From a virus, in the IMG/VR virus record IMGVR_UViG_3300045988_160394, positions 199,173 to 263,172 of that record: 64,000 nt of DNA; one strand, given 5' to 3'. Made by a program: the position numbers and the translations under genes. Each line of letters opens with the position of its first letter. The first letter of the stretch is position 1. Positions 1-46,219 of the stretch are shown here, one piece after another. The notes beneath the pieces were generated by a model. The model saw only the letters and a list, made by a program, of their open reading frames with translations, was not told the origin of the DNA and did not search any database.

Positions 1-2721
1 TTTAAATATACTATCTTTATTAAATGTCATTTCAAATGACACTCTCATACAATCATCTATAAATATTTCATTAGGTTTTAAAGGATTGTTTTTATCGTTC
101 TTACCTAATACTTCTTTTATGTTAGACCAGTCTTCATTATTTATAGATTCTAAATTTAACTTTAAGCTAAATTCCCATATAAGATGATATATATCATTAG
201 CATCTTTAGTTATTATTTCATTCATTGTTAAGTCTTTTAAATACTTAGGATTATTAAAGTCCCCTAATAAAGCATTTTGTAAAGGTAATATATAGTTCTT
301 AGTTACACTTGATAAAGCTTTGTCGTTTGTATCATAAATAAATATTCTAGACTTATCTGTATTACAAATATTCTCTTCTCTTGATCCATCTCCTACAAAT
401 AGAGGAGGATTCATCTTTATAAAATGCTTCTTCTTAACAGCATTACCTATTAAGTTTTCTATTGCTATATTAAACTTTTCATTCTTATAGTTCTCAACTG
501 AATCTAAAGCTAATGCTAATTCACTTAATGATTTAACGAATGTTTTAGCATCATCACTTAAATCTATTGAAGAAGTTGGTGTTAATAAGTTTTCATCTCT
601 ATCTTTTTTTATTTGAAGAGCATTCGCTAACCAGTTTTCATCTGGTATATAAAAACTTATTTCTCCTTTATTTACTTTAGGACCGCACTCATACCACCAT
701 GGACCAACAGTATTTTTATGAGTATAATATTGTAGATTATACTCATAGCTATTAAATTCCATAAGACTTAAGTTCGTTCCAGCTATTATAGATCTTTGAT
801 AGTAATATCTGAATATCTCCCAGTTAAAACTTTTTGCGAACATAGGAGGCATTTCTGCTAGTTTTTCATTATCTTCTTTACCTGTATCTTTATCTATAGG
901 TATATCTGGCATATAAACTTTATAGTTAAATTCTTTTAAAGTTAATATTACTTTTAATAGTCTAGGGAAACCTTCTACGTTTTGAATACTCATATTTGAT
1001 AAAGCAACAGCTTCTATTCCTAATACATCATTTATATAACCGTTCTCTATAGGCAAGAAAGGAGCTATTTTGAATTGGGCTATTAAACTTCTTAAGCCAT
1101 CCATTTTATATTCAAAAGATGTTCCATTAGGACTTGTATAAACATAGTCTATTCCATTTATACCAACGTCTTCGTAAAAGTATAATGTTAGTTCTAACAT
1201 TTGCTCATTATGTCCTTTATGTTTAGCTTGAGTACCTTTACTTCTCATATTAGGTATTCTTTCATAAGTACATTGAGTAATGTTTCTTATACTTTCTGGC
1301 GGTATAAGCATTAAAGTATCTCCTATGAATAATGCACAATTTCTAACTTTAGTAAAATCTATTCCTGTTAATTCTTTATGAAGTTTTAATCTATCTTCAT
1401 AAGATTTTTCTGATATCTTATTGAAACTATCTAACCATTCTATATTATTTCTATCATATGACCATAAATTAAATGAATCAGATATTCCTGAACCAATAGC
1501 TTGTAATTCTGGAGAGCTATTAAATTTAGGATTAGCTATAGTTGATTCTGTATTACATAAAACATATTTATTTAAGTTTATCCATTTACCTTCATATTTT
1601 ACATAAACAACTCCTAGAGATCTTTTATAGTTATCCATTCCATATGGTATATAATTATAATTTGTTATAGGAAGGTCTCCATAATACATATCCCATTCTT
1701 TAATCATAAAATCGACAGTATCTTTTAAATAATAAATGCTGTTAAAAGTTCTATCATCATTATCTGAATTAGTTTTACTTGCTTTAATTCCGTTTGCATT
1801 TAAAACTAGAACTATCTCTTCAGATTTTTCTAAAACTTTTCTAGCAGCTTCTTGAGCTTTATAAGCATCTTTAATAGTGTTAGAAGTAGATTCGTCTTTT
1901 TGCCCCATAACAATAAAGTACTTATATCCATCTTTTTTATTTATATATGGATTAGCACTCATTCTAGTTATTATTTCAGTGTATAAAGTTTTATCTCCAC
2001 TTTCTCCTACTTTTCATAAAGTTACTTTGTCGTCATTTTTTCTTTCTGTAACTTTACCACTTTTTCTATCGTAATTTAAGTTTTCATAAGTTATAAGAGT
2101 TTTACCATTAATCATCTCTTTCATTTTACCGAAGGTTGTTTCTGTTACTCTTTTATCATAGTCTTCTTCTCTGCATAGTTGTACTTCATAGTGAGGTATT
2201 TCCATAGAGTCTATACCTAATGCTCTGACTTGTATTGATTGTCCTCCACCCATCTTTTTAAAGAAGTCTCTAAAGTTATTGTACTTTACACTTTCAGAAC
2301 CATTAGTAAACATTATAGGTTGATTACCATCATTTATATCTTCTAATCTAAAAGACCATGTATCTCCGTCAAACTTATTTAAATCTCAAGTAGACCCATT
2401 TTTATCTATATCAGCTTTATTAGCTTTTAATACGAAAGCTCCTTCTTCTGAATAATGTCCTGGATTAGTAGAGAACGGTGCTTCTACATAAAAGTATGAA
2501 TCTAATATTTCTTTATCAGAATATTCACCATCTGTATTTTTATCTACGTATTGTTGATAAATTTCTGACATTAAATCTTCTTGCATCATTTCATCCATAT
2601 CAGGAGTTAAAAACTTTTTAGGATTTACAGTATTAAAGTCGCTTCTATTATTAGCCATACTAATATATTTTTCTTTATTCTCTTTTAGTTTTTTTAGTAT
2701 GTCTTTATTATCTTGACCCAT
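1..2721 (-). CDS. Large virion-associated protein, first 907 codons (continues beyond left edge); needs TGA=sense
   Basis: ATG 2719-2721 lies behind AAAGGAG. The frame stays open to position 1; I scanned every codon and found no TAA/TAG. The only breaks are in-frame TGA at 2386-2388 and 2014-2016. These join track ORFs 2386..2721 and 2014..2313 to an unlisted open frame 1..2013. Weak staphylococcal-nuclease-like motif QVRALGIDSMEIPH. Confidence 0.75.
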
Positions 2722-2769
2722 AGTAGTCTCCTTTCTATTTATAATAGGTGCAACTTAATGCACCTATCA

Positions 2770-5700
2770 TTAAAAATTCCTATTTATATAATTCTCGATA
2801 TCTCTATCTGTTACTGGCTGATCTTTTTTATTTTTTATATTCATGTTTATATTAACAGCTCCACCTACTGTAGCTTCTGCTGCTTTTGCCATGATCTTCT
2901 CCATATACTTTCTACCTTTTTTAGTATCCGCCTTTATATTTATTATATAACCTTGTTGAGTATTCCCTGTCACATAACCGCTATCTTTTTCCATGAATTC
3001 AGGAATGCTCATAATTTGTTGTGATTTATTTTCTTTGCTAACTTCACTAGCTTGTTTATCATTTAAAGGATTACCAGAAGCATAGCCTCCAATCATTAAT
3101 CCAGCTGCTAAACCTAATACTGCTTTACCCATTCCTCCTACTCTTACATTTTTAACTCCATCAGCTAAAGATTCTGTCATACTTTCAGATAAACGTTTTA
3201 TTTCTGCGTCATATTGTCCAGAGTTCATTAGTTTGTTTTTTGCAATATTACTTTCTTGTTGAGCCATGCTTCTTTGAGCTATTTCATCTAAAGCATTTTG
3301 TAAGAAAGCAGGATCTCCATATCCCATTAAAGCTTGGTGTCTAGTTGCAAAAGTACTAGCTTCTTCAGCAGCTGCTCCAATAGAACCATTATACCAAAGT
3401 TTTTCAGTTCTTGCTCCATTTCTTCCAGTAGCTTCTATAGATGCTTTATAAGATAATGCTAGTTTGTCATGAGACATTTCTTTCATTCTTCCTAAGAATT
3501 TTTGTTTCATTGCATTAGCTCCACTTATCATAGGGTCAGCTTGTTTTTCTATATTAGCTCTTTCTTCTTTGCTTAATATAAGATGTCCCATATGTTCATA
3601 TGATTTCTTAAATATATCATCACCATAATCATCTAACCAACTGCCTAATTCATTTAATGATTCTGTAGATGCTACTGTTCCTTTATTATTAAAAATATCA
3701 TTCATTGCTTTTTTGAAGTTTTTAATTCTATTATCATCATATACTCCACCAGCTAATTTTTTAGAAGAGATTACTCCTTGTTCAGCTGTATCTAAAGCAT
3801 TCCAAACATAGTTATTAAAAGCTATTTCTTCAGGAGAAGTATTTCTAAATACATCAGCTAACTTAACAGCATTTAAAGCTTGGTTAACTGAACCTGTTGC
3901 AGCTAGTCCTGTTTTAGCCATCATTTCTTGTGCATACTTATCTACAGACATTCTTTTAATAGCTGTAGCTTCTAATTTACTAAACGTATCATCATCAACA
4001 TTACCTTTTATAACAGTTAAAGCTTCGTCTAGTATTTTGCCAGGCTCTGATGCTTTATTTAAATCTATATCAAATTTTTCATCTTTAGTTATGTCTTTAG
4101 CCAAACTTAATAAATTAGTTGTATCTTCACTTAGCTTATTAAACTCTTTTACAGTAGGCATATGAGCAACAGTTGTAAAAGTCTTTTTACCTAGAATAGA
4201 TTCTCCGCCTGGAACTAAAACCATGTTATCTGGATTAGATAAGTTTTGATTTTTTATAAAATCTTCTTTAATAGTTTTAGCTGCTTTATCTTGCCAATAT
4301 TTATTATCTGTAACAGCAACACTATACATAGCTCTTTCTTGTGCAGCAAAATAATCATATACTTCACCTGACATTAAATTGTTTTCTATTGCATAGTTTC
4401 TACCACCATTTTTATTAGCTAATTCATATAAAGCTCCATCTACTACTTTCCCATCTTTATCTCTATATTCAATTCTGAATGAAGATAAAGAGTCACCGTC
4501 TTGGTCGGCATTAGCTTTTAACATTGTAGATACAGATATCTTAGTTTGATTACCTTGTAATCTTTTATCTAAGAATACTCTAGTTTGGTTTATAGAATTA
4601 TTCCTTGTATTTGGATAACGGTCAGTTATATCAAAAGTACCATATTCTAATAAGAAATCATCCATTTCACTTTCTGTTTTAAATCCAAACTTCTTTAATG
4701 TTTCTGGTTTATAATATCCCATCTTTTCCATCTGTTCTTTTGATACGTATTTATAATCAAAATAAGCTTCACCATTAGCTTCTCATTCAGCTATTGTTTT
4801 ACCCATTATTTTAGATTTTTTAGTAAGATCATCTCCAACAGTTACATCTATACCTGCCTCTTTAGCTGCCTCTACTAACTCTTTAGTCGTAGTATCAGTT
4901 ATTAATCCAGATGATTTAAGTCTATAAGCAGTTGCATTTATTTCTATTTTACTAGCATTATGATGCATACCATTCTTACCAAATATAGAATCTCTTATAC
5001 CTTCTATAGCTTCTGTTCTATTTCCTAAAACTCTTTGGAATAGTCTTTCATATTCATCATCTTGTTTCCCAGATAAAGATTCTAATTCTTCTATACTATG
5101 TTTAAGCTTATTTAATTTTTGATGTCCTACATCTCTAACTTCCTCATCTGCTATTTTCATACCAGTACCAGGGACAGCTAGATATCTATTCTCCTGACCA
5201 AACTTTTCACCTAAATCTACAACTATGTTTCTTTCTACTAAATCATCAACTTTAAAGTTAACATCTTTGATATCAATAACTTCAAAGCCTTTTTGTTTCA
5301 TATCTTCTAAACTTAAGTTATATCCTCTATTAAAGCTATTAGCTTTCATAGCCATTTGTATTTTATATTCTTTTTCTGCACCTTCTACACCTAATTTAAT
5401 CTTATATTTTTTAGCGTATTCATGAATGTCTTTTAAATGAGCGTATCTTTCTGTTTTAACCATATTATCTGTTAGTAGTTCATCAGTGTATGGATTAAAG
5501 AATTGATCATCTTTAAATTGGTCTAATAAACCTTTTAATGATTTCTCTCCTATAATATCTTTAGAAAAAGTAACAGTACCATCAGCATTTTCTGTTAAAT
5601 GATCTTTGAAGGCATGTGAGCTTAACAATGTTTTAGTATCTAGTTCTCCATTATTAATCATTTTTTCAATTTGTTCTGCATGAGCTTCTGTCAAGGATAC

Positions 5701-8700
5701 CCTTTCTAATATAGATAATTCTTGGTCTCCAAACCTCATAGTTTTCATAGTGCCAGCTTTAGAATCTATATCTTCTAACATAGAATCTATTTTCATTATT
5801 TGTTGTTGAATAGCACTTTTCTCACTAGGGTCGGTAGACTTAATCATTTGCTTTTCTAGTCCTATTCTTTCTTTTTTTAATTCTTTTTTTGTTTTTAACA
5901 TTTCAAAGTATTCTGCTGTTACACCTGTTTGTGTTTCTGCATCTCTAACATATTTTACGTTCTCTCTAGTATTAGTACCTATAGCAACTTTAGCATCTTT
6001 TATAAACTTACCATCAACAGTTATATCTTTTTGTATAGTAGCATATGAACCAATAGCTTCTTTTTTGTATTCATATTTACCATCTTTATTCATAATATAA
6101 ATATCTTTAGCTACTAATCTATCATTTTCATCCATATCTTCTAATTCTTCATCTAAAGATTTTATTAATGCTGTAAACTTATCTTTATCTAATGATGTAG
6201 TTTTATTAACAGAATAAAATTTATCATCTATAAAGAATCTACCTTTCTTTTGTTTAACGCCTATAGATTCATAGCTTTTAGTGTCTTTATTTAAATCATA
6301 TTGTTCTATAAATTGAAATGCTTTATTAGAATTTATTTTATCTACAATAAAATCTACAGCATCTTTCTCTGAACCATATTTCTTACCTAAGCTGTTAATA
6401 GCTTTAGATAATAATCCTTCATACATTTGTCCTATATTACCGTGCTTAGCTACGGCATCATTAGCTAATAAATGAGTTTTATTTTTTAGTATCTTATCGA
6501 ATAATAATGCAGAATGCATATTTCTTTCTACAGTTATAGCTTTCTTTAAATCATCTAAAGATTCAAAACCTATTTTCTTAAGTGTACTTTCAGATAAATC
6601 TTTGTTTTTAAAGAATATAGCATCTACAGTTTCATTAGTAATTACTTTGTCTTTTACTATGTCCCAAGAATCTGTTTCTTTAAAAAATTGTTTTATCTTA
6701 TTGTTGTATGATCCAGTAGAAGCATAAACTATATCTGTCATACCTTTTTCTGCACCAGATGTCATTGTTTTAACATACCCCATAGCAGATATATCTTCTA
6801 TAGCATATTGTCCAGTAATACCTTCTTTAGATAGTATCTTCTCTAACTTAGCAGCCATTTCTGCTTGAGTAAGAGGTTGATTGTTTTTATCTAAAAATTT
6901 AGATAAGTTCTTTCTTATTATTTTATTTATATCTTCGTCTCTTAATTTAGTTCCATCACTTTCATAGAAGTTAAAATTGAAAACTCCATAATGCATTTTA
7001 GAAGCAAAGTCTACATTTCTTTCAGCAAAGCCTTTCCATTTAACAGCTGATTCACCTCTGCTTACTAATTTACCAGGAGAAGAATTGAATACTAATTCTC
7101 CATTTTTAAATTCAAAATTACCTCTATAGTTTAGTAATGCTTCTTGTTGTTTCTTTAAATCATTTCCTACTAATTCATTTAATAAAGCACTAACGTCATA
7201 ATTTTTACTAAGCTTCTGAGTACTAGCTGTTCTTAATCCATAAGCAGCTTCATGCACTCTTGAATCTATAATTCTCTCTTGCTCAAAAGTAGATATTGAA
7301 TTTCTTATATAGTTATAAGCTTTTTTCTCTATATCTTTTGTTTTTTCATCTACATTAGAATCTTTCATTACCTTAGCAAAGTTATTATCTATTAAAACTT
7401 GTAAAGCGTTGCTACTAACATATGTTGTATCCATCATTACATCCGTAGTTGTTTTACCTAATCCAAAATAATTTCTCATAGTTCTTTTATCCATAATATC
7501 AGAACTTAAAGTATTACCAGCAGTAATTCCTAGTTTGGATTTCTTTATATCATCTACTCTTAATTGTAGAGCATTACCAGACTGAGTTATAGGTGGTCTT
7601 TGAGAATTATCAAAGATAGAGAATGTAGAGTTTCCTGGTCTATATCCTCTTATTCCTATAAGTGCAGATGTTTTATTTTCTTGACCAGTAAAACCTAATT
7701 CTTTAGTTAAAAAAGCAAATTCATTAGATACGTTTTTGTCTTCTTTAATTTTATCTAATACAAAGTTAATATTCTTAATCAAATCTCTAGTCATTTCTGG
7801 ATTAATATCTTCTAATGCTTTCTCTTCTTTTACATAATATTTAAGATGTTGTTTCATATTATCTAAGAATTCTTTATCAGCAAAATCTATTCCATCTACT
7901 ATATGATTTAATTTTTGATTTTCTCCAAACAAATCTACTAATACATTTTTTATATCTGATATATCTACTCCATAGTTTGAATCTATATCGTTACCTCCAA
8001 AACCATTTATGGTAGATCTACTTCTTAATGAAGCATTATTTAAAGATACTAATCCTACTAATCTATCAAAACCTTCATCTTGGCCTTTCTTCTCTACTAC
8101 TCTTTGTACGTTATTACTTATACTATATCTATTAAGATTATCTAAAGATGAAGCAGAACCTCCTTTTACTTTTCTACCGTCAGCTTTGAAAGTTAACTTA
8201 TTATTTACTTGTATTTTCATAGAACCTAATTCTAAATACATAGTCTCAGAAGGATCATTGTATTTTATTTTAGGCATAATTAATTCCTCTGATCTACCAT
8301 TTTTAAATAATAATAAAGAACCATCTTCTTGTACAGATATAGATGCTCCAAGTTTATCGGCAGTATGAACTACATCTTTTACATAAGTATTTAAATCTTT
8401 ATATAAGTTGTCATACAATATCTGTTTAGTCCTATCACCTTTTTTTATTACATTTCTATTAGGTATATAATACTTTTCAACTAAACTTTTAGCATATCTT
8501 TCAGCAGATTTCTTAGTACCATCTAGAACATTTATATTTGTTCTTTCAACTATATTATTTGCTATTTGTTGAATTATTGGTTTCATATTTTCACTATTTA
8601 AGTATCTAACAAATTCAGTATTACCTTCTAATGCTTTCATAAATGTTCTGCTACCATTTAATATTCCATTTGTAACATTAGACTCTTTAGCTTCTCTCAT

Positions 8701-11701: not shown

Positions 11702-12016
11702 TTATAATACAATACCTAGTTTAATCAGGATACTGTTCATTCTATTAACTTCTTTTCTAAGTTCAGAATTTTCTTTTGTCAAAGTTTCTATCTTTTCTTC
11801 TAGAATCTTTGTTTGTTTAGCATATTCTTCTTTAACTTTTGAGTTTTCTATTGAAAGCTTTTCTATCATCAACATAAGTTGTTCGTTAGCTGTTAAAATA
11901 AGATCTTGCTTTTTATTATTTTTGTTAATTCATAAACCATACATAGTTCCGATTAAAGTTATTAATGCAACAATAATAGTAGCATCAATTGAATTTAAAC
12001 TAGTTAGAATATCCAT
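11702..12016 (-). CDS. 104-aa protein with N-terminal transmembrane segment and coiled-coil tail (holin/spanin-like architecture, function unknown)
   Basis: Absent from the ORF track because of an in-frame TGA at 11930-11932. ATG 12014-12016 lies behind AAGGGGTG; TAA at 11702. Sequence MDILTSLNSIDATIIVALITLIGTMYGL(TGA)INKNNKK, then heptad-like EKLSIENSKVKEEYAKQTKILEEKIETLTKENSELRKEV. Confidence 0.55.
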
Positions 12017-19220: not shown

Positions 19221-19223
19221 ATT

Positions 19224-19640: not shown

Positions 19641-19668
19641 TTTTATTTATTTTCTAATAATTAGTATA

Positions 19669-29245: not shown

Positions 29246-29247
29246 AT

Positions 29248-32609: not shown

Positions 32610-32652
32610 TATTCAAATTCCTCCTCAAAGAATCTTATTTTCTATTTTTTTT

Positions 32653-32675
32653 GAGGGAGCTTTTTAAACTCCCTC
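32653..32675 (-). promoter_or_regulatory. GC-rich hairpin in the 115-nt spacer upstream of the capsid gene
   Basis: GAGGGAG-(9 nt)-CTCCCTC. On the minus RNA it is followed by an A-run, so it is not a classic terminator. It may be a processing or stability element. Confidence 0.3.
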
Positions 32676-32724
32676 TTTCTATTTTTTATTATATAAAAGA
32701 TATACCAATAATTTTCACAATTGA

Positions 32725-34188: not shown

Positions 34189-34284
34189 TCCTTGTATTTA
34201 ATTTCTTTTTAATGATTTCTTATTTTAGTATATTCATACATTTGAAAATATTATCTTTTCGTTGCTTTTATTATATTAAAGAGA

Positions 34285-37858: not shown

Positions 37859-37883
37859 GTTATCACCTGTCTTTCATATTTAA

Positions 37884-38186
37884 TTATTTAACTCTTGCTA
37901 ATATATCAGTCTCTTTTAATAGCAAGTATTTTTTATTATCAAATTGTATTTCAGTTCCAGCATATTTATTGTATAATACTTGATCTCCTACATTAACTGA
38001 AGGAATTAATAACTGTCCATTGTTTAGCATTCTTCCTTCTCCGATTGCAACAACTCTTGCCATATCTGTTCTTAAAGATTGTTCAGTTCCTTCATTAAGT
38101 AAGATTAATCCACCTTCTGTTTTTTCTTCTTTTTGTTTAACCTCTATTTCTAATAATAAATTATCTCCCATTGGTTGTAGATTCAT
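37884..38186 (-). CDS. groES: GroES/Cpn10-family co-chaperonin (100 aa)
   Basis: Aligns by eye along its whole length with bacterial GroES. MNLQPMGDNLLLEIEVKQKEEKTEGGLIL / ARVVAIGEGRMLNNGQLLIPSVNVGDQVLYNKYAGTEIQFDNKKYLLLKETDILARV versus [27 protein letters not shown] / [30 protein letters not shown]...LIMSESDILAIV. Confidence 0.85.
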   Translation of the reverse strand: MNLQPMGDNLLLEIEVKQKEEKTEGGLILLNEGTEQSLRTDMARVVAIGEGRMLNNGQLLIPSVNVGDQVLYNKYAGTEIQFDNKKYLLLKETDILARVK

Positions 38187-39162
38187 GTTTTATACCTTCC
38201 CTTTCTATTAATGTTTGTTTTGACTTTATTTCTTGAACTCAACTTTGAAAACTATCCTTTATAACTTTATTTGAGCTATTAAGATAACGATATAAGTTTT
38301 CATAAGCTATATCATATTTCTTATCGTATGATATTAATGATGCTGTTAATACATTATTGTTATATTGATTTGATTTCGTTCCACCGTCAGTTTTTTCTAT
38401 ATTAGCATATCTAATTCTAAACTCTTGTGTGGCTTTTAATTGTTTTAAATTTATTATTGTTGATTCTAAGTTAAACATAAGTTTGTGATAATCTAGTTTC
38501 ATATCTTTTATTATTTGTTGTCTAACAGCAGAATCTAACAAATGCTTAGCATTATCTATAATATCGTTACTATTAAATAGTATATTATTAATTATTAATC
38601 CAATTTCACTGTCTGTTTTATTACTAGTTGCTAAAATATAATCTCTTCAAAATTCAGTAATTATATTTTGTAACTCAATATTATAATAATAAAATAAGTC
38701 TACTAAATTCTTTATATATTCTTTTTCGTATATATCTTTTTTTGTATACTCTTCTTCTTCTGTTGGAAAGAAGTCATCTGTTCCTCACATATTATCAACA
38801 TCTTCATTATTGTTATTATCATCATTTTCGTTATCACTATTTTCATTGTTGTCAGTATCAGCATAATTCCAATCATCTTCATCAGGAATAGGTTCTACAA
38901 CTTTATCTTTTAATTCTTCATTTATAAAATCTAAGACTGGATCAAACACTTCTTTTATTGTATTAGAAGCTTCATTTGGCAATTTAGAAATCAATGTGTT
39001 TAATACATTCATATTATTTATCAAATTGTCTATGATTTCTTTACCTTCGTCTTTTTCATCTGGTGCATTATTGTCTATTTCACTATATTCTATTTCTGAA
39101 TAATAATCATCAGTGTAATTAAGCTCAGGAACATAACCTATTCGTTTTTTATTTTCATCCAT
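38161..39162 (-). CDS. Hypothetical acidic protein (333 aa with TGA 38785, 38647, 38239 decoded)
   Basis: Track ORFs 38785..39162 and 38239..38541 plus the connecting codons are one frame ending at TAA 38161, which is 26 nt inside groES. ATG 39160-39162 lies behind AAAGGAG. Confidence 0.6.
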
Positions 39163-39227: not shown

Positions 39228-42200
39228 CTATCTACTAAATCCACCTCTTCTACCAAAACCTCCAGAACGAGAACCTCAACCACTACTCCTTCCACCAAAT
39301 CTATTAGACATAGCTTTAGCTGATCTATAATCCATATCAACCTCTACTCATGTTTGTCTATCTCCAGGTAAATCATCTCAATCATTATTAGCATAAAAAT
39401 CAGATATTCTAGAGTCTGTATTAATTCTATTAACAGAAGTAGCATACATTCCTGCTCCACCCATTTGTTTATTAGATATATGGAAGTCTGAAGTAGTTTT
39501 TATATCTTCAACGACACCTGTTAGTTCTTTAAATTCCATAACCATTGCTAAGTGAGCTAAACCTAAAGCGTCGACAAAGTGTTCGTTTTCTGATGTATAT
39601 TGAGGTATACCTGCTTTAGACATTTGAACAACTTCGTAATCTGTTAATTGTTTAGCTAATACATCGTCGTAAGGAGATAATATAATTCTATCTCTTTCAA
39701 AAGCTATTTGTAGTTGGTTAACCATAAATGGTTTAAAAGGTTTGCTATCTAATTCTTTAGTTATAGGGTCCATTATTTGAAGCTTAGTAGAAAAGTTACA
39801 CTTCTTAACTTTAGCTTTTAATCCTGTTTGTGGATTTTCATCACCTATGATATGCAAGCGTTCTATTTGATATTCTCCTGCTCCTGCATCACAATATATT
39901 CAGCTAGGATTATATAGAGCATTTAATTCAACTATTAAATTAACAGCTGCATCATAAGAATATTCACTTCTAGGAACTTCTACTCTTTTTAATACTTTAA
40001 ATTTATTAAAGTTTACATCATAATCTAATATTAAAATAGAAGATGAAGCTCCATATTTATCTCAGTCAACCCCCATAGTTCTAAAAACATTTCTAGGAGG
40101 AGGATTTGTTCTGTCATACAATTCCATGAAGGGGTATAATCCTGTTTCTTGTAGTTTTTCTTTTTGGAAATAATCTAATTCATTATAAGCATAATTATAA
40201 AACTTTTGAGCAGCATCTAATTTATTCTTATCAAATACCCCTGTTTCTTGTGTACCGAACTCAGCTAAAACTTCATGCACATAACCTTCAGCTGTTAATT
40301 GAGCTTTAAGTTCTGCTTCCATTTGAGCATTCCAGTTAGGGTTATGTGTAGATGGATGATAATGTTGAGAATATCCCATACTCTTATCTGTACACATTTG
40401 ATAGAACTTACTACGTTTACCTAAAGGTGTAGATGAAACTGTTATACCTATTTCAGGTCTCTCTATAGCAACAGCAGCAACAACTTCGAAACAATATTCA
40501 CTCATGAAGTCAACCTCATCTATGAATATCCAGTCTGCTTTTTGTCCTCTTATAGAAGCTGCATCATCACCAGTAGTAAATCCTAGTATCATAGATCCGT
40601 TAGCAAATTCTATTTTTGCAGGGTTCTTTGTAGAAGCAACTACTGTTTGTTTTAATAATGGAGATTCTGCTATTAACTCATTTAATCTTGTAAACATGTT
40701 TCTGATTTGGTTTTCATATGGAGCAGCCATAAGTATTCTAAAGTTCTTATTACTACTAGCCATATATAACATCTCAACTACCATTGTTTCAGTATTATGA
40801 GTTATAAAGTCTTCTGCTACAAAGTTCATTGTTAATGGTATAGATAAATTATATGTTTGCATCTCTCCTAAGGATTGTATTGAAACTATTTCATCAAAGA
40901 TAAATTCACCATCTGCAAAAGCTTTTAAATCTTCATTATCTAATACATTAGCGAATTCTTTTAATCTACTCCTTTGGATATCATAATTCATTCTTAATCT
41001 AACATTAGGATTTGTTTTACACAAATCAGCTTTAGATAATCCTTGTTTAATTCTATCTTCTTCTACGAATTCTAATATCTCTTTTGGTAGATAAGTATCG
41101 TATTTATTATTTATTAAAGCTAATTCATAAGCTTCTTTCATAACTTTCTCTTTAGAGAAAATACCAATCTCTTTATAGAACTTAATAACGTTTATAGAAT
41201 CTGTTATTAAAAGCTGATAACAAACTTTAATTGTTCCATTATATTTATTTTTCTTAGTTACAACATAGCTATTAATTCCAAACTTTAATAATAAATGTTG
41301 TATATCAGAAATAAGTTCTCTTGATACAGAACTATATCCTATTTGTTGTTTATTATTTCTAGCATATGCTCAACCATCTGTAGCGTATAATCTAGATAAG
41401 AATAAAGCTGTATCGTTTTTACTTAATTTAAATATATCTTTAGGAACGAATTTAGTATGAGATGTTTTCCCAAACAATTCGTGCTTTTCTAAAATCTCTT
41501 TAATATTGTTAGGATAGATTCTATTATTCCTGTTATGTTTTTTTACAATATTATAATCTATGTTTCTATTGCTTTTATATTGTACTAATTCACAGTCAAA
41601 ATAGTTAACTGCTCTTTCTAATTCACTTCTTATCTCTTCAGAAGCTGTACAGAATCTAATAGCCTTTGTAGAGCAATTACCGTCACCAATCATGTAAGCT
41701 AATAGTTTTATTTCATTTTCGCTCATGTAGTGATTACCGAAATATCCTAAGTTACCAGCTAATGCTACTCTATCTCCTGGTTTTAAGAAATCTATTGCTT
41801 GTCATCCTTTAGCAGTAAATAATGGGTGATTTCCCGTAGCATCTATGTGCCTACCTGACTTTGTAGTAACTCTAAAGACTTCTTTAATTCCGTTATCTGT
41901 TATTTCATTAGTAAAGTGAGGACTCATCTTATAATCATCTGTCATAGTTACAAAATGAGCTCGACCTTGTTTATATAACTCTTCTGCTGTTACTCTTTCT
42001 CCTGTTTTAGGATTAAATACTCTAGTATGACCAGGGATACATTTCCCTATACGTCTTCCACATCTATATACTTTTCTAACACTTTTGTCTCTTAACATTT
42101 CAACTTGATATCATCTAGCTGTTCAAGGCACGTATTCTTTTTTTCTAGGATCGAAAGTTTTTAAAAAAGCTTGAGACCATAATATAGGGTCATCCATAAT

Positions 42201-42239
42201 TTCTTTAAGCTTCTTGGACTGAGCTCTATTTATTGCCAC
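39228..42239 (-). CDS. terL: Terminase large subunit precursor (1003 aa) interrupted by an intein in the Walker A motif
   Basis: One frame runs from GTG 42237-42239 (8 nt after AAGGAG) to TAG 39228. It passes through 9 in-frame TGA (42123, 42111, 41802, 41370, 40062, 39900, 39378, 39348, 39276). Exteins: ...VP(TGA)TAR(TGA)YQVEMLRDKSVRKVYRCGRRIGK | TETMVVEMLYMASS..., giving P-loop GRRIGKT. Walker B is DWIFIDEVDF. The nuclease-type C-terminal domain contains EHFVDALGLAH. Confidence 0.85.
40794..42041 (-). mobile_element. Intein (416 aa) with LAGLIDADG homing-endonuclease domain inside terL
   Basis: N-terminal splice block CIPGHTRVF...TGNHPLF. LAGLIDADG motifs LLAYMIGDGN and LYATDG(TGA). C-terminal block MNFVAEDFITHN followed by the +1 Thr. 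Inserted between K and T of the Walker A GKT. Confidence 0.8.
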
Positions 42240-42478
42240 TGTTTTCACTCCTTACATGTTGATTAGAAAAATAAGTCAAAAGGTTCATCATCAAATTCTA
42301 ATAATATTTCTCTTTTGTATGTTCTTTCATCTAAATACTTTTTAAATTCTTCTATTTCTGATTCATTATATGCTTCACTAGCTTTTGCTATATATCTAGT
42401 AATATAACAACTGCTACATAACTCTTTAGTTAATGGAGTTGTTCCTGCTATTGATATACTAACTTCTTCATTATTTGC

Positions 42479-42904
42479 TCATATAGTACTTAGTTTGAAA
42501 AATGATAGTAAATCATCAAAAGCTCTTCTAGAAAAATAAGGCTCGTCGACTTTTAAATGTTTTAATCTTAATCCTCTAGCGTCTCCTCTTTCTATTTCGT
42601 TAATACTTTTTATATACAATGTATTATCATTAATAATAACTTTGTCATTTACTAATTCATATTCGCAATCTAAAGCAGAGCATATTTCTTTAATAGTTTG
42701 TAAGATATGTTTTTTTTGTGCTACATAACTGCAACAGAATAACACATCAGATTCATTGTTCGCTTGCATATCTCTTACTGTTGATAAACATAAAGCAGAT
42801 GTTTTTCCAACTCTTCTACTTCCTAATAATATTTTTATTTTAGAATTGTTATCATATATAAAATTTCTAATAGTATCTTTACTTAAAATATCCATTACAT
42901 TCAT
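42479..42904 (-). CDS. Small P-loop NTPase (141 aa) resembling a terminase ATPase core
   Basis: ATG 42902-42904 lies 9 nt after AAAGGAG (the track start 42973 lacks an RBS). Walker A LLGSRRVGKTS, compare TerL GRRIGKT. Walker B-like LKHLKVDEPYF. TAG stop, no TGA. Confidence 0.55.
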   Translation of the reverse strand: MNVMDILSKDTIRNFIYDNNSKIKILLGSRRVGKTSALCLSTVRDMQANNESDVLFCCSYVAQKKHILQTIKEICSALDCEYELVNDKVIINDNTLYIKSINEIERGDARGLRLKHLKVDEPYFSRRAFDDLLSFFKLSTI

Positions 42905-42944
42905 TATTTTAATATCTCCTTTATTATCCTGTTTTTTATTTTTA

Positions 42945-43985
42945 CTATATGCGATGCATATATTGAGCTTCATTCCCCATAATTGATTGTTGTAAATTGT
43001 ATTGTGACATCTTAGCTAATTCCATACCAGCTTGTCTCATTGTAGCTAATTGTCGAGTATCATGAAATTCAGCTTCTCCAAATGTTTGAAATCTTTGAGA
43101 ACTATTCATTTCTCTAGTTACTTTTTGTAATGAGTCTACACTACTAACGACCATAGAAGGTAACTGTTTAGCTAACATTACAGGGAATGCTGCTCCTTGA
43201 AGAACCTCTCCCGTTACGAACATGGCCCCCGCTTTAGCAGCTGATTTAACAACACCATTACCTTGATTTCTAGCATCTTTATAATCAGAGATAGCCACAC
43301 CAGTGTTTATTATTACTCCGACGCTTCTTTTATTAAATATCTTTTTAAATACAGATTCTTCTAGTTTATCTTCTGCTTCATTCATTCCTTCTTTAGTTAC
43401 ATCTTCTATAACTTCTTTAGTTTCTTCTTTTATCTTTTCCTTAACTTTCTTTTTAGTTTGTTTTTTACTTTCTTTTTCTGCTTCTTTTCTAAAAACAACA
43501 TTATGCTCTTTATCATATTCTTTTGTAAATTTATTTATTTCAGAATCGACATCAAACAATTCTTCAGGCTTACTATATTTAATCCTTTCTCCTTCGTAAT
43601 CATAAAACAGTCCTTCATTTTCAGAAAGGAATCTTTTCATACTTTCAAGATCTTCATTACTTTCTATTACGCCACTTCTTCTTGCTCTATTAATAGCACC
43701 TTGTGCGTCAAAATAATCAGTATCTTCTCCTAATATATTGTTTATCTTTTCATACAAAGGATTGCCTTTAAGATTATTTAATTCATTATGTTCTAATAAA
43801 GAAGCTCGTTTCTCATTTATAGCTTTTTCTCTGTCTTTAAGCATCTTTTCATAAGCTTGATCTTCTTGTCTAGCATTTTTTCTCTTATCATTTTTTCTAT
43901 GTCTTCTTTTCCATTTAGAATAAGATAGCTTACCTCCACCAGCTACATACTCTTCATACAAGGCTTTTAATTCTTCTTCATTCAT
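42945..43985 (-). CDS. Hypothetical protein (346 aa), charged N-terminal half, hydrophobic Gly/Ala-rich C-terminal half
   Basis: Intact ORF with TAG stop and no TGA. Confidence 0.6.
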   Translation of the reverse strand: MNEEELKALYEEYVAGGGKLSYSKWKRRHRKNDKRKNARQEDQAYEKMLKDREKAINEKRASLLEHNELNNLKGNPLYEKINNILGEDTDYFDAQGAINRARRSGVIESNEDLESMKRFLSENEGLFYDYEGERIKYSKPEELFDVDSEINKFTKEYDKEHNVVFRKEAEKESKKQTKKKVKEKIKEETKEVIEDVTKEGMNEAEDKLEESVFKKIFNKRSVGVIINTGVAISDYKDARNQGNGVVKSAAKAGAMFVTGEVLQGAAFPVMLAKQLPSMVVSSVDSLQKVTREMNSSQRFQTFGEAEFHDTRQLATMRQAGMELAKMSQYNLQQSIMGNEAQYMHRI

Positions 43986-43986
43986 A

Positions 43987-44664
43987 CTACATCATTCCTC
44001 CATGTCTTAAATTGTTTAAAGCAAATACTAAATCACCAGTAGCTCCACCGTCTTGTGCATAAGCAGGAACTCTTGGAGCGGAAGTAGTAACTTGACCATC
44101 AGGATTTATTCCTTTTCTATCTTCTATAAATTGTTTAGCTGCATCAGGAGTTCCTATAATAGCCATACCTGCACCTGCTAATAAAACACCTCTTTTAGTA
44201 GCTTTATATCCTACTAAACTTTCTTCATCTTTTCTTATAAGCTGTAATGGGTTTTTGACCTTATGGCCGTCAACGATATTATAGTCTCTTGATATAGTAT
44301 CAAAAACAGCAGCTCCATTATTTACGAACTGTTTTCCTCTTCTACTTAAATCATCTAAGAATAAAGGCTTTCTACTAATACCAACTTTACCTACAATATT
44401 ATAAGAAGAATCATCAGATAATATTGTTGTGCTTGTTTTCCCTATTCCTCTTTTAACAGCTCTTTTTACAGAACCATCTTTTATTTTGCCAATAAAGTCT
44501 TTCCCCATATGAATTCCTTTATCAGCGGCCCCAGCTCCTCCTTCAATTAATCCAGGAACATGTTTAAAGATTTTATTAGTAATCTTACCTACTTTAGCAG
44601 CGATACCAATAGATACATCATTAATGTTACCCATAAGTTTATTTACTCTACCTAATAACGACAT
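43987..44664 (-). CDS. Hypothetical protein (225 aa), Gly-rich
   Basis: Intact ORF with TAG stop, packed 1 nt from the next gene. Confidence 0.6.
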   Translation of the reverse strand: MSLLGRVNKLMGNINDVSIGIAAKVGKITNKIFKHVPGLIEGGAGAADKGIHMGKDFIGKIKDGSVKRAVKRGIGKTSTTILSDDSSYNIVGKVGISRKPLFLDDLSRRGKQFVNNGAAVFDTISRDYNIVDGHKVKNPLQLIRKDEESLVGYKATKRGVLLAGAGMAIIGTPDAAKQFIEDRKGINPDGQVTTSAPRVPAYAQDGGATGDLVFALNNLRHGGMM

Positions 44665-44722
44665 TTAATCAACTCCTTATGTTTATAGTAATAAAGTGCA
44701 GCTATTAAACTGCACTTATAAA

Positions 44723-45172
44723 TTAGATAAATGGTACTCCAGGTAAATTGAAGTTACCGTATCTATCTCTATATAATCCTCCACCAGTAACAACTCTACC
44801 AGCAACTCCTACAGTAAACGCAGTTCCAGCAACTTTCTTTGCACTGATATGACCATTAACCATATGCCCCTTTTTAATAGCTTCTAAAGCAGTAGCACCA
44901 GACTCTCTTGCTTTAAAAGAATCAGTTATCCCTTTAAATACTTTTGCATTACCAACAGCTGCTCCCATTTTATAGCTTTCTTTTTGCATAAGTTCATTAG
45001 TTAATTCATGCCCCATCTTTAAAGCTTCTCTTTTAGATTTAGTAACTCCTTGTGCTAAAATCCCTGCTGCTGATCTTTTAGCAAGTCTACTTTCAGCTTT
45101 ATTACTCGCTGCTGAAAATAAACCAGCCGCAAATTCAGTCATACCTTCAGCTATTTTTCTTCCTTTACTCAT
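44723..45172 (-). CDS. Hypothetical protein (149 aa), Ala/Gly-rich
   Basis: Intact ORF with TAA stop. Followed by hairpin AGTGCAG-(9 nt)-CTGCACT at ca 44694-44718. Confidence 0.55.
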   Translation of the reverse strand: MSKGRKIAEGMTEFAAGLFSAASNKAESRLAKRSAAGILAQGVTKSKREALKMGHELTNELMQKESYKMGAAVGNAKVFKGITDSFKARESGATALEAIKKGHMVNGHISAKKVAGTAFTVGVAGRVVTGGGLYRDRYGNFNLPGVPFI

Positions 45173-45184
45173 TTAAATCACCTC

Positions 45185-45847
45185 TTATAAATTATCTGGT
45201 CTTTCCTCTACAATAAATTCAGTACTAATAGCATTATCAAGCATCTCATTAACAGATAAAGTATTACCTTGTTGTCCTTTTTGTGATCTTCTAGTTCCAA
45301 GCATATTATCAAGAATCTTATCTTTTCTATTTAAACATCTTTCATATAGTTCATAAGCTTTAGATACTTCTGGTCTAGTATATTCTTCTCCTGATTCAGT
45401 CATACCTGCAACTACATCTGTTATAGGCAATTGTTCTTTAGACAATATAGCTTTACATCTTTCTAACATTACATCTATATTAATTAATTCAGCTACTAAT
45501 GTTTGATCAGTAAAGCTGGCTTCGTCTAGATTGTAATCTTCCATATAATAGTTTCATCTTGTTTCTATCATGGCCGTTTCTACTGGACATTTTTCTCCTA
45601 AAGGAGCTAAATCATATTCCAATAAACCACAAGTAGCCGCATATGGACAATCACTTTGTTTACAAACAATTGGCACTTTAGCAAATAGGCCTGTCTTAGT
45701 AGATAACATTGCCATAGCTGCTTTTTTAGCCTCTACTCCAACAACACTATGTCCTCAAAAGTTATTTGACATAGCTTGTATGAAACCTTCTTTTTTAGCT
45801 ATTGCATCCTCTCTTTCTTGTAGAGAAATCTCCTTATTTATTTCCAT
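45185..45847 (-). CDS. Hypothetical 220-aa protein with Cys cluster (small-terminase position; function not established)
   Basis: ATG 45845-45847 lies behind GGGGGTGAG. Two in-frame TGA (45755, 45554) precede track ORF 45185..45544. Motif VCKQSDCPYAATCGLLEYDLAPLGEKCP. The antisense track ORF 45570..46088 is a shadow. Confidence 0.6.
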
Positions 45848-45853
45848 AATATA

Positions 45854-46219
45854 TTACTCACCCCCTTCCCATAATTTACTATCATCATCTTTATATATTT
45901 CTTTTTCTAATTTTTCAACCATTTCTTCTGATAAGTTCGTTTCTCCATTTTTTATAGAATATTCTTCAGCAGTAAAGTTATATAAGATATTAAAATCTTC
46001 TGATCCAAATACTTCATTAAAAACCTTGACGTTTTTTAAAACATATCTACTACTTTCTATTTTATTAATATCATCTATATATCTATGAGTTGTCATGCTA
46101 CCTGTTATTAATATTTCTTCTTCTCCATTTTCATTCTCTATTAATTTAGTTTCAAACGTAAGACGCCCTTTGACTCTCTTTAATTGTTTATCTCCTGTTA
46201 CTATCTTTAGGTTCGCCAT
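45854..46219 (-). CDS. Hypothetical protein (121 aa), first gene of the minus-strand operon
   Basis: Intact ORF with TAA stop, preceded by the 290-nt AT-rich divergent spacer. Confidence 0.55.
   Translation of the reverse strand: MANLKIVTGDKQLKRVKGRLTFETKLIENENGEEEILITGSMTTHRYIDDINKIESSRYVLKNVKVFNEVFGSEDFNILYNFTAEEYSIKNGETNLSEEMVEKLEKEIYKDDDSKLWEGGE

What the first reader, a model, noticed from the sequence alone, without database searches (positions are those of the whole stretch)
1..46219. TGA is a sense codon throughout the late (minus-strand) operon
By hand I count 45 in-frame TGA codons in 14 of the 29 minus-strand genes. In every case the next track ORF continues in exactly the same frame. 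No TAA/TAG and no frameshift lies between the pieces, and the downstream piece usually has no RBS or ATG of its own.

Joining the pieces gives sensible full-length proteins:
- TerL regains its N-terminus, P-loop, Walker B and nuclease domain.
- The portal and the sheath regain their N-termini.
- Two giants of 2121 and 2946 aa appear.

All 28 complete minus-strand genes, and every plus-strand gene, end in TAA or TAG; none ends in TGA. Local contexts look Trp-like: VP-x-TAR-x-YQ in TerL, MPE-x-LPERF, FDA-x-DRG, LA-x-G-x-NN. The genome also still uses TGG.

This matches the known phenomenon of stop-codon recoding in phages (TGA to Trp, table 4). TGA to Gly (table 25) is the alternative reading.
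Basis: partly seen in the sequence, partly recalled or inferred. Interest (0 to 1): 0.9.

Follow-up and report, generated by a model that had tools for sequence, protein, structure and literature searches.

The report
Phage late genes read TGA as tryptophan
The virion-gene block of this roughly 263-kb gut jumbo phage, probably a Clostridium phage, uses the stop codon TGA to encode tryptophan, while its other genes still use TGA as a stop; this is real, but it is an already described kind of phage code switching.

Summary
On the minus strand (1-46219) I find 29 genes with 46 in-frame TGA codons in 15 genes. There is no in-frame TAA or TAG in 15,082 codons. The 21 plus-strand genes have no TGA at all.

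TGA means tryptophan, not glycine:
- Standard-code relatives carry W opposite TGA in 26 of 49 aligned cells. Opposite TGG the figure is 39 of 76. Background W is 1.2%, and G appears in 0 of 49 cells.
- Closer uncultured relatives carry TGG at 128 of 194 cells.
- Strains of the same phage swap TGA and TGG.

This is not a genome-wide table 4. Beyond the window, four non-structural genes end in TGA, and one ortholog has TAA at that codon. The CCA-adding enzyme and the CRISPR repeats point to a standard-code Clostridium host.

The closest relatives by sequence are the jumbo myoviruses Bacillus phage 0305phi8-36 and Moorella phage MTATph1.

The pattern matches published TGA-recoded phages (Borges et al.; Mgcod), so this is a new member of a known kind.

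The decoding agent is unresolved. I found no tRNA, RF1 or TrpRS in about 166 of 263 kb. The remaining 97 kb could not be reached.

The parts
1..46219 (-). Recoded late (virion) gene block: 29 genes with 46 in-frame TGA in 15 genes. All complete genes end in TAA or TAG.
   Evidence: In frame 0 there are 0 TAA, 0 TAG and 46 TGA in 15,082 codons. The block continues at least about 37 kb beyond window position 1, with many more TGA.
39228..42239 (-). Large terminase, 1003 aa, with 9 TGA (aa 39, 43, 146, 290, 726, 780, 954, 964, 988) and 3 TGG. It is interrupted by an intein with a LAGLIDADG endonuclease (about aa 67-482).
   Evidence: Pfam Terminase_6N, Intein_splicing and LAGLIDADG_3. Standard-code relatives carry W at aa 43, 146, 290 and 726. 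IMG/VR relatives carry TGG at 8 of the 9 sites.
38161..39162 (-). Gene of 333 aa with 3 TGA (aa 126, 172, 308).
   Evidence: Relatives carry TGG, or TAT/TAC, at these sites.
35723..37858 (-). Portal protein, 711 aa, with 1 TGA at aa 67.
   Evidence: tblastn to the portal genes of MTATph1, 0305phi8-36 and KLEB27-3 (E = 3e-94 for MTATph1). The site is TGG in 6 IMG/VR relatives, GAA in 5 and GCT in 1. It is N in the three distant relatives.
31383..35721 (-). Head genes without any TGA: major capsid protein (31383-32609), a decoration-like protein (32725-34179) and protease/scaffold (34285-35721). Together they have 14 TGG and 0 TGA.
   Evidence: Pfam Phage_capsid_4. Homology to 0305phi8-36 gp123-125. 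P(0 of 14) = 3.5e-4 at the block-wide TGA share.
24114..27044 (-). Tail sheath, 976 aa, with 1 TGA at aa 88.
   Evidence: tblastn to annotated sheath genes. The site is TGG in 10 of 10 IMG/VR relatives.
18426..23288 (-). Genes g05 to g08. g07 and g08 are tube-like and g05 matches the relatives' tail regions. Sense TGA: g05 18426-19220 (1), g07 19669-20733 (1), g08 20733-23288 (2). g06 19224-19625 has none.
   Evidence: g05 aa 144 aligns with W in MTATph1 and 0305phi8-36. g08 aa 281 is TGG or TTC/TTT in relatives.
28793..30920 (-). g13 (28793-29245, 2 TGA) and g15 (29991-30920, 2 TGA, Ig-like Big_5 domain).
   Evidence: TGG or TAT/TTT in relatives.
12038..18403 (-). Giant of 2121 aa, in the tape-measure position, with 13 TGA and 9 TGG.
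   Evidence: It has a TTG start with a GAGG Shine-Dalgarno site. Eleven of its TGA sites align to relatives. At six of these, every aligned relative has W (aa 1039, 1344, 1383, 1805, 1979, 2003). Aa 1082 has W in one relative, and aa 980 has Y in all.
11702..12016 (-). Small gene of 104 aa with 1 TGA (aa 29).
2770..11610 (-). Giant of 2946 aa with 5 TGA (aa 71, 141, 175, 819, 2276). No database family matched.
   Evidence: Aa 71 and aa 819 are TGG in other strains of the same phage.
1..2721 (-). N-terminal 907 aa of a baseplate-hub giant. Its open frame spans about 2,995 codons and runs off the window. It has 2 TGA inside the window and 7 in all.
   Evidence: It is homologous to MTATph1 CDS0032, 0305phi8-36 gp147 and KLEB27-3 gp035.
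42263..45847 (-). Genes upstream of TerL with sense TGA: g24 42263-42904 (1) and g28 45185-45847 (2).
   Evidence: g28 aa 98 aligns with Y in two relatives.
46220..46517 (.). Divergent intergenic region at the 5' end of the recoded block. It holds no tRNA.
   Evidence: ARAGORN and Rfam were negative. The sequence was read. Promoter-like matches are not above chance.
46518..63617 (+). Block compatible with the standard code: 21 non-structural genes of unknown function with 0 TGA (neither sense nor stop) and 29 TGG.
   Evidence: Pfam and PHROGs found nothing meaningful. I infer that these are early genes from the layout, not from function.

Best explanation
The window is the late (virion) module, plus part of the non-structural module, of a phage genome of about 263 kb. 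The phage is a jumbo myovirus related to Bacillus phage 0305phi8-36 and Moorella phage MTATph1. Its host is most likely a Clostridium that uses the standard code.

Shown:
- In the late module, UGA is translated as tryptophan. About 43% of Trp codons there have drifted from TGG to TGA.
- The non-structural genes avoid sense TGA almost entirely, and a few still use TGA as their stop.

Inferred:
- Early genes can be read by the unmodified host ribosome under the standard code.
- The late proteins (terminase, portal, sheath, tape-measure-like and hub giants) can be completed only once a UGA-decoding, Trp-inserting activity is present. The code change therefore acts as a translational gate on late genes.
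- That activity must compete with RF2 and be less efficient than UGG decoding. This would explain why the most abundant virion proteins (capsid, decoration, scaffold, tube) keep only TGG.

My best guess for the decoding agent is a phage-encoded suppressor tRNA with anticodon UCA, charged by the host TrpRS and encoded in the 37% of the genome I could not read. I put this step at only about 0.45.
For: Decoding as Trp:
- In local tblastn against standard-code relatives, W stands opposite TGA in 26 of 49 cells. Opposite TGG the figure is 39 of 76. Background W is 1.2%, binomial P = 4e-37, and G is 0 of 49.
- IMG/VR relatives (69-90% capsid identity) have no in-frame TGA. At the window's TGA sites they carry TGG at 128 of 194 cells, and aromatic codons at most of the rest.
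- Strains at 98% identity swap TGA and TGG at 3 sites.
- A 177-aa protein found on 37 contigs is identical to the read-through product of L024:21350-21883, with W at both TGA positions.
- Purifying selection runs across the TGA codons.

Two codes in one genome:
- TGA:TGG is 46:60 in late genes and 0:29 in early genes.
- Beyond the window, four non-structural genes end in TGA. One ortholog has TAA at that codon, and one has an ATGA stop/start overlap preceded by a GGAGGG site.

Standard-code host:
- The phage CCA-adding enzyme has its best named matches in Clostridium perfringens (60% identity) and other Clostridium species.
- The phage's CRISPR repeats belong to a type that the scan found almost only in Clostridium and other Clostridia, among one genome each of 185,579 bacterial and archaeal species.
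- The GC content is 29% and the genes have strong AGGAGG ribosome-binding sites.

Inefficient decoding:
- The head genes have 0 TGA against 14 TGG (P = 3.5e-4).

Precedent:
- Borges et al. (bioRxiv 10.1101/2021.08.26.457843) describe the same pattern in TGA-recoded Agate and Jade phages. That includes close standard-code relatives, rare TGA stops and low GC.
- Mgcod (10.1101/2022.06.29.495998) describes genomes with separate code-11 and code-4 blocks.
Against: - No tRNA of any kind was found by ARAGORN or by Rfam (E <= 1) across about 166 kb. That stretch includes the 5' end of the recoded block, where Mgcod reports that amber suppressor tRNAs usually sit.
- No RF1 or TrpRS domain appears among the precomputed Pfam hits of the called genes in that stretch.
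- The timing of expression (early versus late) is inferred from gene layout only.
- The host is inferred, not demonstrated. None of 921 Clostridium spacers matches the phage.
- The separation is not absolute. A P-loop gene (2 TGA) and ThyX (1 TGA) in the non-structural arm carry sense TGA.
Confidence: 0.85

Rival explanations
1. The decoding outcome is the same (UGA = Trp in late genes, standard-code host), but the phage carries no suppressor tRNA. Instead it would make the host's own tRNA-Trp(CCA) read UGA. It could do this by antagonising or depleting RF2, by modifying or editing the tRNA, or by both. Firmicutes already read UGA as Trp at a low level (my own knowledge: Bacillus subtilis).
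For: - No tRNA was found in 63% of the genome, including the 5' end of the recoded block.
- Mgcod found a Sup-TCA tRNA in only 3 of 17 complete code 11+4 phages. Borges et al. found one in 35%.
- Near-cognate tRNA-Trp(CCA) variants can read UGA (PMC13092985).
- The phage encodes a CCA-adding enzyme, although no tRNA has been seen so far.
- Abundant proteins avoid TGA, which fits inefficient decoding.
Against: - 97 kb remain unread, so the absence of a tRNA is not established.
- No candidate RF2 antagonist or tRNA-modifying enzyme was identified.
- Nine UGA codons in TerL and 13 in one giant would demand very efficient read-through.
Confidence: 0.3
2. The host itself uses code 4 (a Mollicutes-like bacterium), and the phage simply follows its host. 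There is no code switch.
For: The GC content is low (29%). No gene in the window ends in TGA.
Against: - Sense TGA is absent from all 21 window genes on the plus strand (0 of 29 Trp codons) and nearly absent from a further ~66 kb of that arm. Under a host code 4 with AT pressure it should be everywhere.
- TGA ends four non-structural genes, and one ortholog has TAA at that codon.
- The host signals point to Clostridium, which uses code 11.
- The closest relatives do not use sense TGA at all, and some end genes in TGA.
Confidence: 0.05
3. TGA encodes glycine (table 25), as in Absconditabacteria or Gracilibacteria and their phages.
For: At one site, in the Gly/Arg-rich C-terminal tail of TerL (aa 988), 5 relatives have GGT and 4 have TGG.
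Against: - G stands opposite TGA in 0 of 49 cells against distant relatives, although background G is 6.4%. W stands there in 26 of 49.
- TGG is the dominant partner in close relatives and in strains of the same phage.
Confidence: 0.01
4. The TGA codons are real stops. The pieces would then be pseudogenes, separate genes, assembly errors, selenocysteine sites or sporadic programmed read-through.
For: A standard gene caller splits these genes into fragments.
Against: - The frame is always kept, and no TAA or TAG interrupts it over 15,082 codons.
- Conserved domains span the TGA codons.
- The same TGA codons appear in independent assemblies.
- The synonymous to non-synonymous ratio is about 5:1 on both sides of the TGA codons.
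- The sites align with W, not with Cys, which argues against selenocysteine.
Confidence: 0.01

Closest known systems
TGA-recoded (code 4) gut phages, clades Agate and Jade (Borges et al., bioRxiv 10.1101/2021.08.26.457843; published 2022)
   Same: - TGA aligns with Trp.
- Recoding is concentrated in structural and late genes, and replication or early genes are mostly standard.
- The predicted hosts are standard-code Firmicutes.
- Very close standard-code relatives exist.
- TGA stops are rare in those relatives (here 5 of 175; 2.7% in their example).
- GC content is low and genomes are large.
   Different: - This lineage is a phage of about 263 kb whose virion genes resemble those of 0305phi8-36 and MTATph1.
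- No suppressor tRNA, RF1 or TrpRS was seen in the 63% of the genome I read. Two Jade genomes carry a tRNA, TrpRS and RF1 operon.
Phage genomes with blocks of two genetic codes (crAss-like phages; Mgcod, bioRxiv 10.1101/2022.06.29.495998)
   Same: - One block is readable under the standard code and one block needs the reassigned stop.
- The recoded block holds the late genes.
- In code 11+4 genomes, in-frame TGA aligns with TGA itself or with TGG.
- Most code 11+4 genomes lack a detectable Sup-TCA tRNA (3 of 17 have one).
   Different: - The contigs that study names are mostly crAss-like phages, and amber (TAG) recoding is far more common there than opal. This phage is a contractile-tailed jumbo phage, probably of Clostridium.
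- Here TGA is shown directly as a working stop in the standard block, through a TGA/TAA ortholog pair and an ATGA overlap.
Bacillus phage 0305phi8-36, Moorella phage MTATph1 and Bacillus phage vB_BauM_KLEB27-3
   Same: - They are the closest characterised relatives: the major capsid protein is 37-52% identical.
- Terminase, portal, protease/scaffold, sheath, tube, tape-measure-like giant and baseplate hub all match, in the same order.
- The KLEB27-3 TerL also carries the intein.
   Different: - They use the standard code throughout, with W (TGG) where this phage has TGA.
- Their GC content is higher (37-47%).
- The 2946-aa protein of this phage has no counterpart in them.
Cellular code 4 (Mycoplasma, Spiroplasma)
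   Same: UGA = Trp, in an AT-rich genome where TGG drifts to TGA.
   Different: - In those bacteria the reassignment is genome-wide, RF2 is lost and a tRNA-Trp(UCA) is present (my own knowledge).
- Here only part of the genome uses it, TGA still ends some genes, and only 43% of late Trp codons are TGA.

Membership tests
Stop-codon-recoded phage, code 11 + code 4 (TGA to Trp) | In-frame TGA inside conserved genes, aligned with Trp in homologs | tested here: met
   W stands opposite TGA in 26 of 49 cells against standard-code relatives, the same rate as opposite TGG. Close relatives carry TGG at 128 of 194 cells. Strains differ by TGA/TGG.
Stop-codon-recoded phage, code 11 + code 4 (TGA to Trp) | Recoded codons concentrated in late or structural genes, with the other block readable under the standard code | tested here: met
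   There are 46 TGA in the 29 late genes and 0 in the 21 plus-strand genes. In a further ~66 kb of the non-structural arm only 2 genes carry sense TGA, and 4 genes end in TGA.
Stop-codon-recoded phage, code 11 + code 4 (TGA to Trp) | Host uses the standard code | tested here: inconclusive
   The evidence is indirect. The CCA-adding enzyme is closest to Clostridium perfringens (60%). The phage's CRISPR repeat type is found almost only in Clostridium and other Clostridia. TGA is a working stop in early genes. No spacer match or prophage links the phage to a host.
Stop-codon-recoded phage, code 11 + code 4 (TGA to Trp) | Phage-encoded suppressor tRNA with anticodon UCA (present in only a minority of published code-4 phages) | tested here: inconclusive
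   ARAGORN and Rfam found no tRNA in about 166 of 263 kb. The remaining 97 kb could not be reached.
Stop-codon-recoded phage, code 11 + code 4 (TGA to Trp) | Close standard-code relatives with few TGA stops and low GC | tested here: met
   Fifteen IMG/VR loci have 69-90% capsid identity, no sense TGA, TGA as the stop in 5 of 175 cases, and GC of 30-35%.
Code 25 phage (TGA to Gly) | TGA aligned with Gly in homologs | tested here: not met
   G stands opposite TGA in 0 of 49 cells. Only one low-complexity site shows GGT in some relatives.
0305phi8-36-like jumbo myoviruses | Homologous virion genes in the same order (TerL, portal, protease/scaffold, decoration, capsid, sheath, tube, tape-measure-like giant, baseplate hub) | tested here: met
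   tblastn of the window proteins against OR602862, EF583821 and OM634661.
Jade or Agate clades of Borges et al. | Placement in their terminase tree | not testable with these tools
   Their genome sequences are not in the collections I could search by name.

The most novel reading that the evidence does not exclude
This phage turns UGA into a Trp codon in a standard-code Clostridium without carrying a suppressor tRNA of its own. It would do so by acting on the host machinery late in infection, for example by disabling RF2 or by altering host tRNA-Trp(CCA). If so, it would offer a tractable example for the many code-4 phages in which no Sup-UCA tRNA has been found.
Probability: 0.25. Interest if true: 0.75.

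Novelty: new member of a known kind. Interest (0 to 1): 0.35.

Why it matters
**Annotation.** Under table 11, public gene calls cut this phage's terminase, portal, sheath and three giants of 2,100-3,000 aa into fragments. Any catalogue that uses those calls misdescribes a phage that is common in public metagenomes. One of its genes is listed in 105 blocks of the sequence collection.

**Biology.** This is a clean, young case of the known late-gene code switch:
- Standard-code relatives exist at 69-90% capsid identity.
- TGA and TGG are still polymorphic within the species.
- TGA is still a working stop in early genes.
- The most abundant virion proteins are kept free of TGA.

These features, together with a likely Clostridium host, make the phage a reasonable system for asking how UGA is decoded when no suppressor tRNA is evident. 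It does not change what is already known about recoding in phages.

Tried and rejected
**Known phage.** A megablast of 22 kb against GenBank phages gave no match. Only distant protein-level relatives exist.

**Hunt for the suppressor tRNA.** I walked outwards from both ends of the window with the look-up of encoding contigs. I used window proteins, hits of the search for homologous proteins, and members returned by the listing of cluster members.
- This reached about 166 kb of the genome, partly through strains 95-98% identical.
- ARAGORN found no tRNA in any piece.
- Rfam at E <= 1 found no tRNA, tmRNA or HDV-like ribozyme.

**Jump to the replication module.** I queried with the MTATph1 DNA polymerase. 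The result was swamped by bacterial DnaE, and no hit lay on a 263-kb contig.

**Walking through relatives in IMG/VR.** Four non-structural proteins used as queries found no relatives.

**Dispersed repeat to pull many tiles of the contig from the metagenome collection.** No 16-mer recurs four or more times.

**Host by CRISPR.**
- The exact phage repeat has no match in the GTDB representative genomes.
- A degenerate repeat pattern hits Clostridium arrays.
- None of their 921 spacers matches the phage beyond 15-21 nt chance matches.

**Function of the plus-strand genes and of the 2946-aa giant.** Pfam, PHROGs and PDB sequence searches found nothing.

**Residue at the P-loop gene's TGA sites.** A PDB search was uninformative.

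**Context effect at sense TGA.** The following base is A or G in 40 of 46 cases. That is close to what follows TGG in this AT-rich genome, so I draw no conclusion.

**Absence of TGA stops in the window as evidence.** I rejected this. Relatives use TGA stops at only about 3%, so 0 of 50 is not significant.

Full report
**1. What is in the window**

The window has 29% GC. Reading between TAA/TAG stops only gives two blocks that diverge from a 298-bp spacer at 46220-46517.

- The minus strand (1-46219) carries 29 genes with strong AGGAGG-type ribosome-binding sites.
- The plus strand (46518-63617) carries 21 mostly small genes.

Several minus-strand genes could be identified:
- The large terminase (39228-42239) matches Pfam Terminase_6N. 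It is interrupted by an intein with a LAGLIDADG endonuclease.
- The major capsid protein is at 31383-32609 (Pfam Phage_capsid_4).
- Portal, protease/scaffold, decoration protein, sheath, tube proteins, a tape-measure-like giant and a baseplate hub are identified by homology.
- That homology, and the shared gene order, are with Moorella phage MTATph1, Bacillus phage 0305phi8-36 and Bacillus phage vB_BauM_KLEB27-3.

Nothing close exists among GenBank phages at the DNA level.

**2. The observation**

I count 46 in-frame TGA in 15 of the 29 minus-strand genes. The joined proteins of 2946 and 2121 aa are reproduced exactly.

- In the coding frame of these genes, 15,082 codons hold no TAA, no TAG and 46 TGA.
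- The two other frames hold TAA or TAG at roughly one codon in ten. The long frames are therefore real, and TGA does not end them.
- All 28 complete minus-strand genes and all 21 plus-strand genes end in TAA or TAG.
- The plus-strand genes contain no TGA at all, against 29 TGG. Late genes have 46 TGA to 60 TGG (Fisher p = 1e-6).
- With TGA counted as Trp, Trp content is 0.70% in the late genes and 0.66% in the early genes.

**3. Which amino acid**

Three independent comparisons agree on tryptophan.

(a) Distant relatives that use the standard code (MTATph1, 0305phi8-36, KLEB27-3):
- Twenty TGA sites fall in aligned regions.
- The residue opposite is W in 26 of 49 cells. The rest are Y 8, N 5, E 3, A 2, L 2, and H, Q and V once each. 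G never appears.
- The window's own TGG codons align with W in 39 of 76 cells, so the profile is the same.
- Background W is 1.2% and background G is 6.4% (P = 4e-37).

(b) Fifteen uncultured relatives from IMG/VR (69-90% capsid identity):
- They have no in-frame TGA in the aligned regions.
- At the window's TGA sites they carry TGG in 128 of 194 cells, and aromatic codons in most of the rest.

(c) Strains of the same phage (about 98% identity):
- They differ by TGA/TGG at three sites.
- A 177-aa protein recorded on 37 contigs is identical to the product of L024:21350-21883 of this genome, except that it has W at both positions where this genome has TGA.

Glycine (table 25) is therefore rejected. 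Selenocysteine, pseudogenes and assembly errors are also rejected:
- The TGA codons recur in independent assemblies.
- Substitutions between strains are 258 synonymous to 54 non-synonymous. By codon position they number 47 (first), 18 (second) and 255 (third). This holds on both sides of the TGA codons.

**4. The genome beyond the window**

Over the overlaps I fetched, the window is identical to ENA contig ERZ1756024 NODE_19 (263,172 bp). Contigs of 261-265 kb from other samples start at different points, which suggests a complete, circularly permuted or circular assembly.

I walked outwards from both ends of the window.

*Late block.* It continues for at least another ~37 kb and is dense in TGA. 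Examples are a frame of 1,858 codons with 8 TGA and a hub frame of about 2,995 codons with 7.

*Non-structural arm.* It continues for about 66 kb on the same strand. It encodes a CCA-adding enzyme, an NAD-dependent ligase, a DHH phosphoesterase, a PemK toxin, TnpB with small CRISPR-like arrays, ferritin, NUDIX, FolD, ThyX and a GroEL-like protein with an intein.

In that arm TGA is almost never a sense codon, and it ends four genes:
- L021:15978-16373 ends in TGA. A GGAGGG site lies just before the stop and the next ATG lies one codon after it. The ortholog in a related strain (L031) has TAA at exactly that codon.
- L139:2538-2834 ends in an ATGA stop/start overlap preceded by GGAGGG.
- L139:2348-2530 ends in TGA.
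- L021:11384-11731 ends in TGA. Reading through would add 15 codons, two of which are further TGA.

Two genes in that arm are exceptions and carry sense TGA:
- A P-loop protein (L021:18980-19456) has 2 TGA, conserved in three strains. A Pfam AAA_18 match spans the first one.
- ThyX (L139:14331-15062) has 1 TGA upstream of the part that aligns to solved ThyX structures.

The genome therefore uses two codes, not table 4 throughout.

**5. Host**

- The phage CCA-adding enzyme has its best named matches in Clostridium perfringens (60% identity) and other Clostridium species.
- The phage carries CRISPR-type repeats. A degenerate form of the repeat was scanned against one genome each of 185,579 bacterial and archaeal species. 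It occurs almost only in Clostridium and other Clostridia.
- GC content and Shine-Dalgarno usage fit such a host.
- No spacer match was found, so the host remains an inference. Clostridium uses the standard code.

**6. How it most likely works**

*Shown:* UGA means Trp in the late block. TGA is a stop in some non-structural genes. Relatives use the standard code.

*Inferred:*
- Early genes are readable by the host ribosome as it is.
- Late proteins can be finished only after a UGA-reading, Trp-inserting activity appears. The recoding therefore gates late translation, as Borges et al. proposed for such phages.
- The capsid, decoration and scaffold genes have 14 TGG and 0 TGA (P = 3.5e-4), and the tube gene has none either. 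This suggests that UGA decoding is less efficient than UGG decoding. That fits suppression in competition with RF2 rather than a complete reassignment.

*The agent is unknown.* I found no tRNA in the window or in any fetched piece. That is about 166 of 263 kb, and it includes the 5' end of the recoded block. I also found no RF1 or TrpRS domain among the called genes there. About 97 kb remain unread.

- I put a phage-encoded tRNA(UCA) in the unread part at about 0.45.
- I put a tRNA-free route at about 0.3. That route would use host tRNA-Trp(CCA) together with action on RF2 or on the tRNA.
- The literature keeps the second option open. Only 35% (Borges et al.) or 3 of 17 (Mgcod) code-4 phages have a detectable Sup-TCA tRNA. 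Near-cognate tRNA-Trp(CCA) variants can read UGA (PMC13092985).

**7. Comparison with what is known, and verdict**

The published descriptions of TGA-recoded Agate and Jade phages and of two-code phage genomes list these features:
- Trp at TGA;
- recoding of structural and late genes;
- a block compatible with the standard code;
- close standard-code relatives;
- few TGA stops (here 5 of 175 in relatives);
- low GC.

All of these are present here. What is specific to this case is the lineage (a Clostridium-type jumbo phage with 0305phi8-36/MTATph1-like virion genes), the evident youth of the recoding, the direct evidence that TGA still terminates early genes, and the lack of a suppressor tRNA in nearly two thirds of the genome.

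The phenomenon is already known, so I rate this a new member of a known kind, with interest 0.35.

Noticed in passing
window 39228-42239 (-), intein at about aa 67-482 of TerL: The large terminase is split by an intein with a LAGLIDADG homing endonuclease (Pfam Intein_splicing and LAGLIDADG_3). Two of its TGA codons (aa 146 and 290) lie inside the intein. The KLEB27-3 TerL aligns across the intein region, with W at both positions.
   Followed up: partly
window 54268-54333 (+): A type II hammerhead ribozyme match (40.4 bits, gathering score 37, E = 9e-5) lies in the spacer between two plus-strand genes. The default gathering-threshold scan missed it, and the more permissive scan found it.
   Followed up: partly
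window 55300-55354 (+): A twister-P1-like ribozyme match (49.1 bits, below the gathering score of 67.2, E = 7e-8) lies in the next intergenic spacer but one. One hairpin of the model is missing.
   Followed up: no
window 31383-35721 (-) and 23375-24040 (-): The most abundant virion proteins (capsid, decoration-like protein, protease/scaffold, tube) contain only TGG (16 TGG, 0 TGA). Low-copy proteins such as TerL have 9 TGA to 3 TGG. This suggests selection against TGA where high translation yield is needed.
   Followed up: partly
window 2770-11610 (-): The 2946-aa protein has a DEDD/DnaQ-like motif (FVWDLETLG, near aa 160). It also has DRYPNTR...KANADQDGDS near aa 2325-2375, which resembles the catalytic NADFDGD loop of the multisubunit RNA polymerase beta' subunit. 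It could be a virion RNA polymerase of the YonO or crAss gp66 kind. Pfam, PHROGs and PDB sequence searches found nothing, and the 0305phi8-36-like relatives have no homolog.
   Followed up: partly
L021 15978-16643 (beyond the window's right end): The early gene that ends in TGA is followed, one codon later and in the same frame, by the next gene (TGA TTA ATG). Once UGA is read as Trp, a 131 + 88 aa fusion protein would be made late in infection. The strain with TAA at this codon would not make it.
   Followed up: no
L021 18980-19456 and L139 14331-15062 (outside the window): Two isolated recoded genes lie inside the otherwise standard non-structural arm. One is a P-loop (AAA_18-like) protein with 2 TGA. 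The other is ThyX with 1 TGA near its N-terminus.
   Followed up: partly
L139 6693-7111 and L039 18364-18790 (outside the window): The phage carries short CRISPR-like arrays next to a TnpB (OrfB_IS605/Cas12f-like) gene. The repeats are GTTTAATATTAACATAGGATGTATTTAAAT and GTTGAACTTTAACAAGAATTGTATTTAAAG. This repeat type is found almost only in Clostridium and other Clostridia.
   Followed up: partly
L031 10001-11347 and L027 18368-19714 (outside the window): The phage encodes a CCA-adding enzyme that is 60% identical to that of Clostridium perfringens, yet no tRNA gene was found in the 166 kb examined.
   Followed up: partly
L139 15062-17692 (outside the window): A GroEL-like (Cpn60) gene is interrupted by a homing-endonuclease-type intein (Pfam Hom_end, weak hit). 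With the TerL intein this would be a second intein in the genome.
   Followed up: no
window 47272-47347 (+): A long, perfect, AT-rich hairpin (16-bp stem at 47290-47326) lies between two plus-strand genes. It looks like a terminator but has no clear T tract.
   Followed up: no
window 39276-39278 (TerL aa 988): In the Gly/Arg-rich C-terminal tail of TerL, one TGA aligns with GGT in 5 relatives and with TGG in 4. This is the only site that hints at Gly, and it lies in low-complexity sequence.
   Followed up: yes
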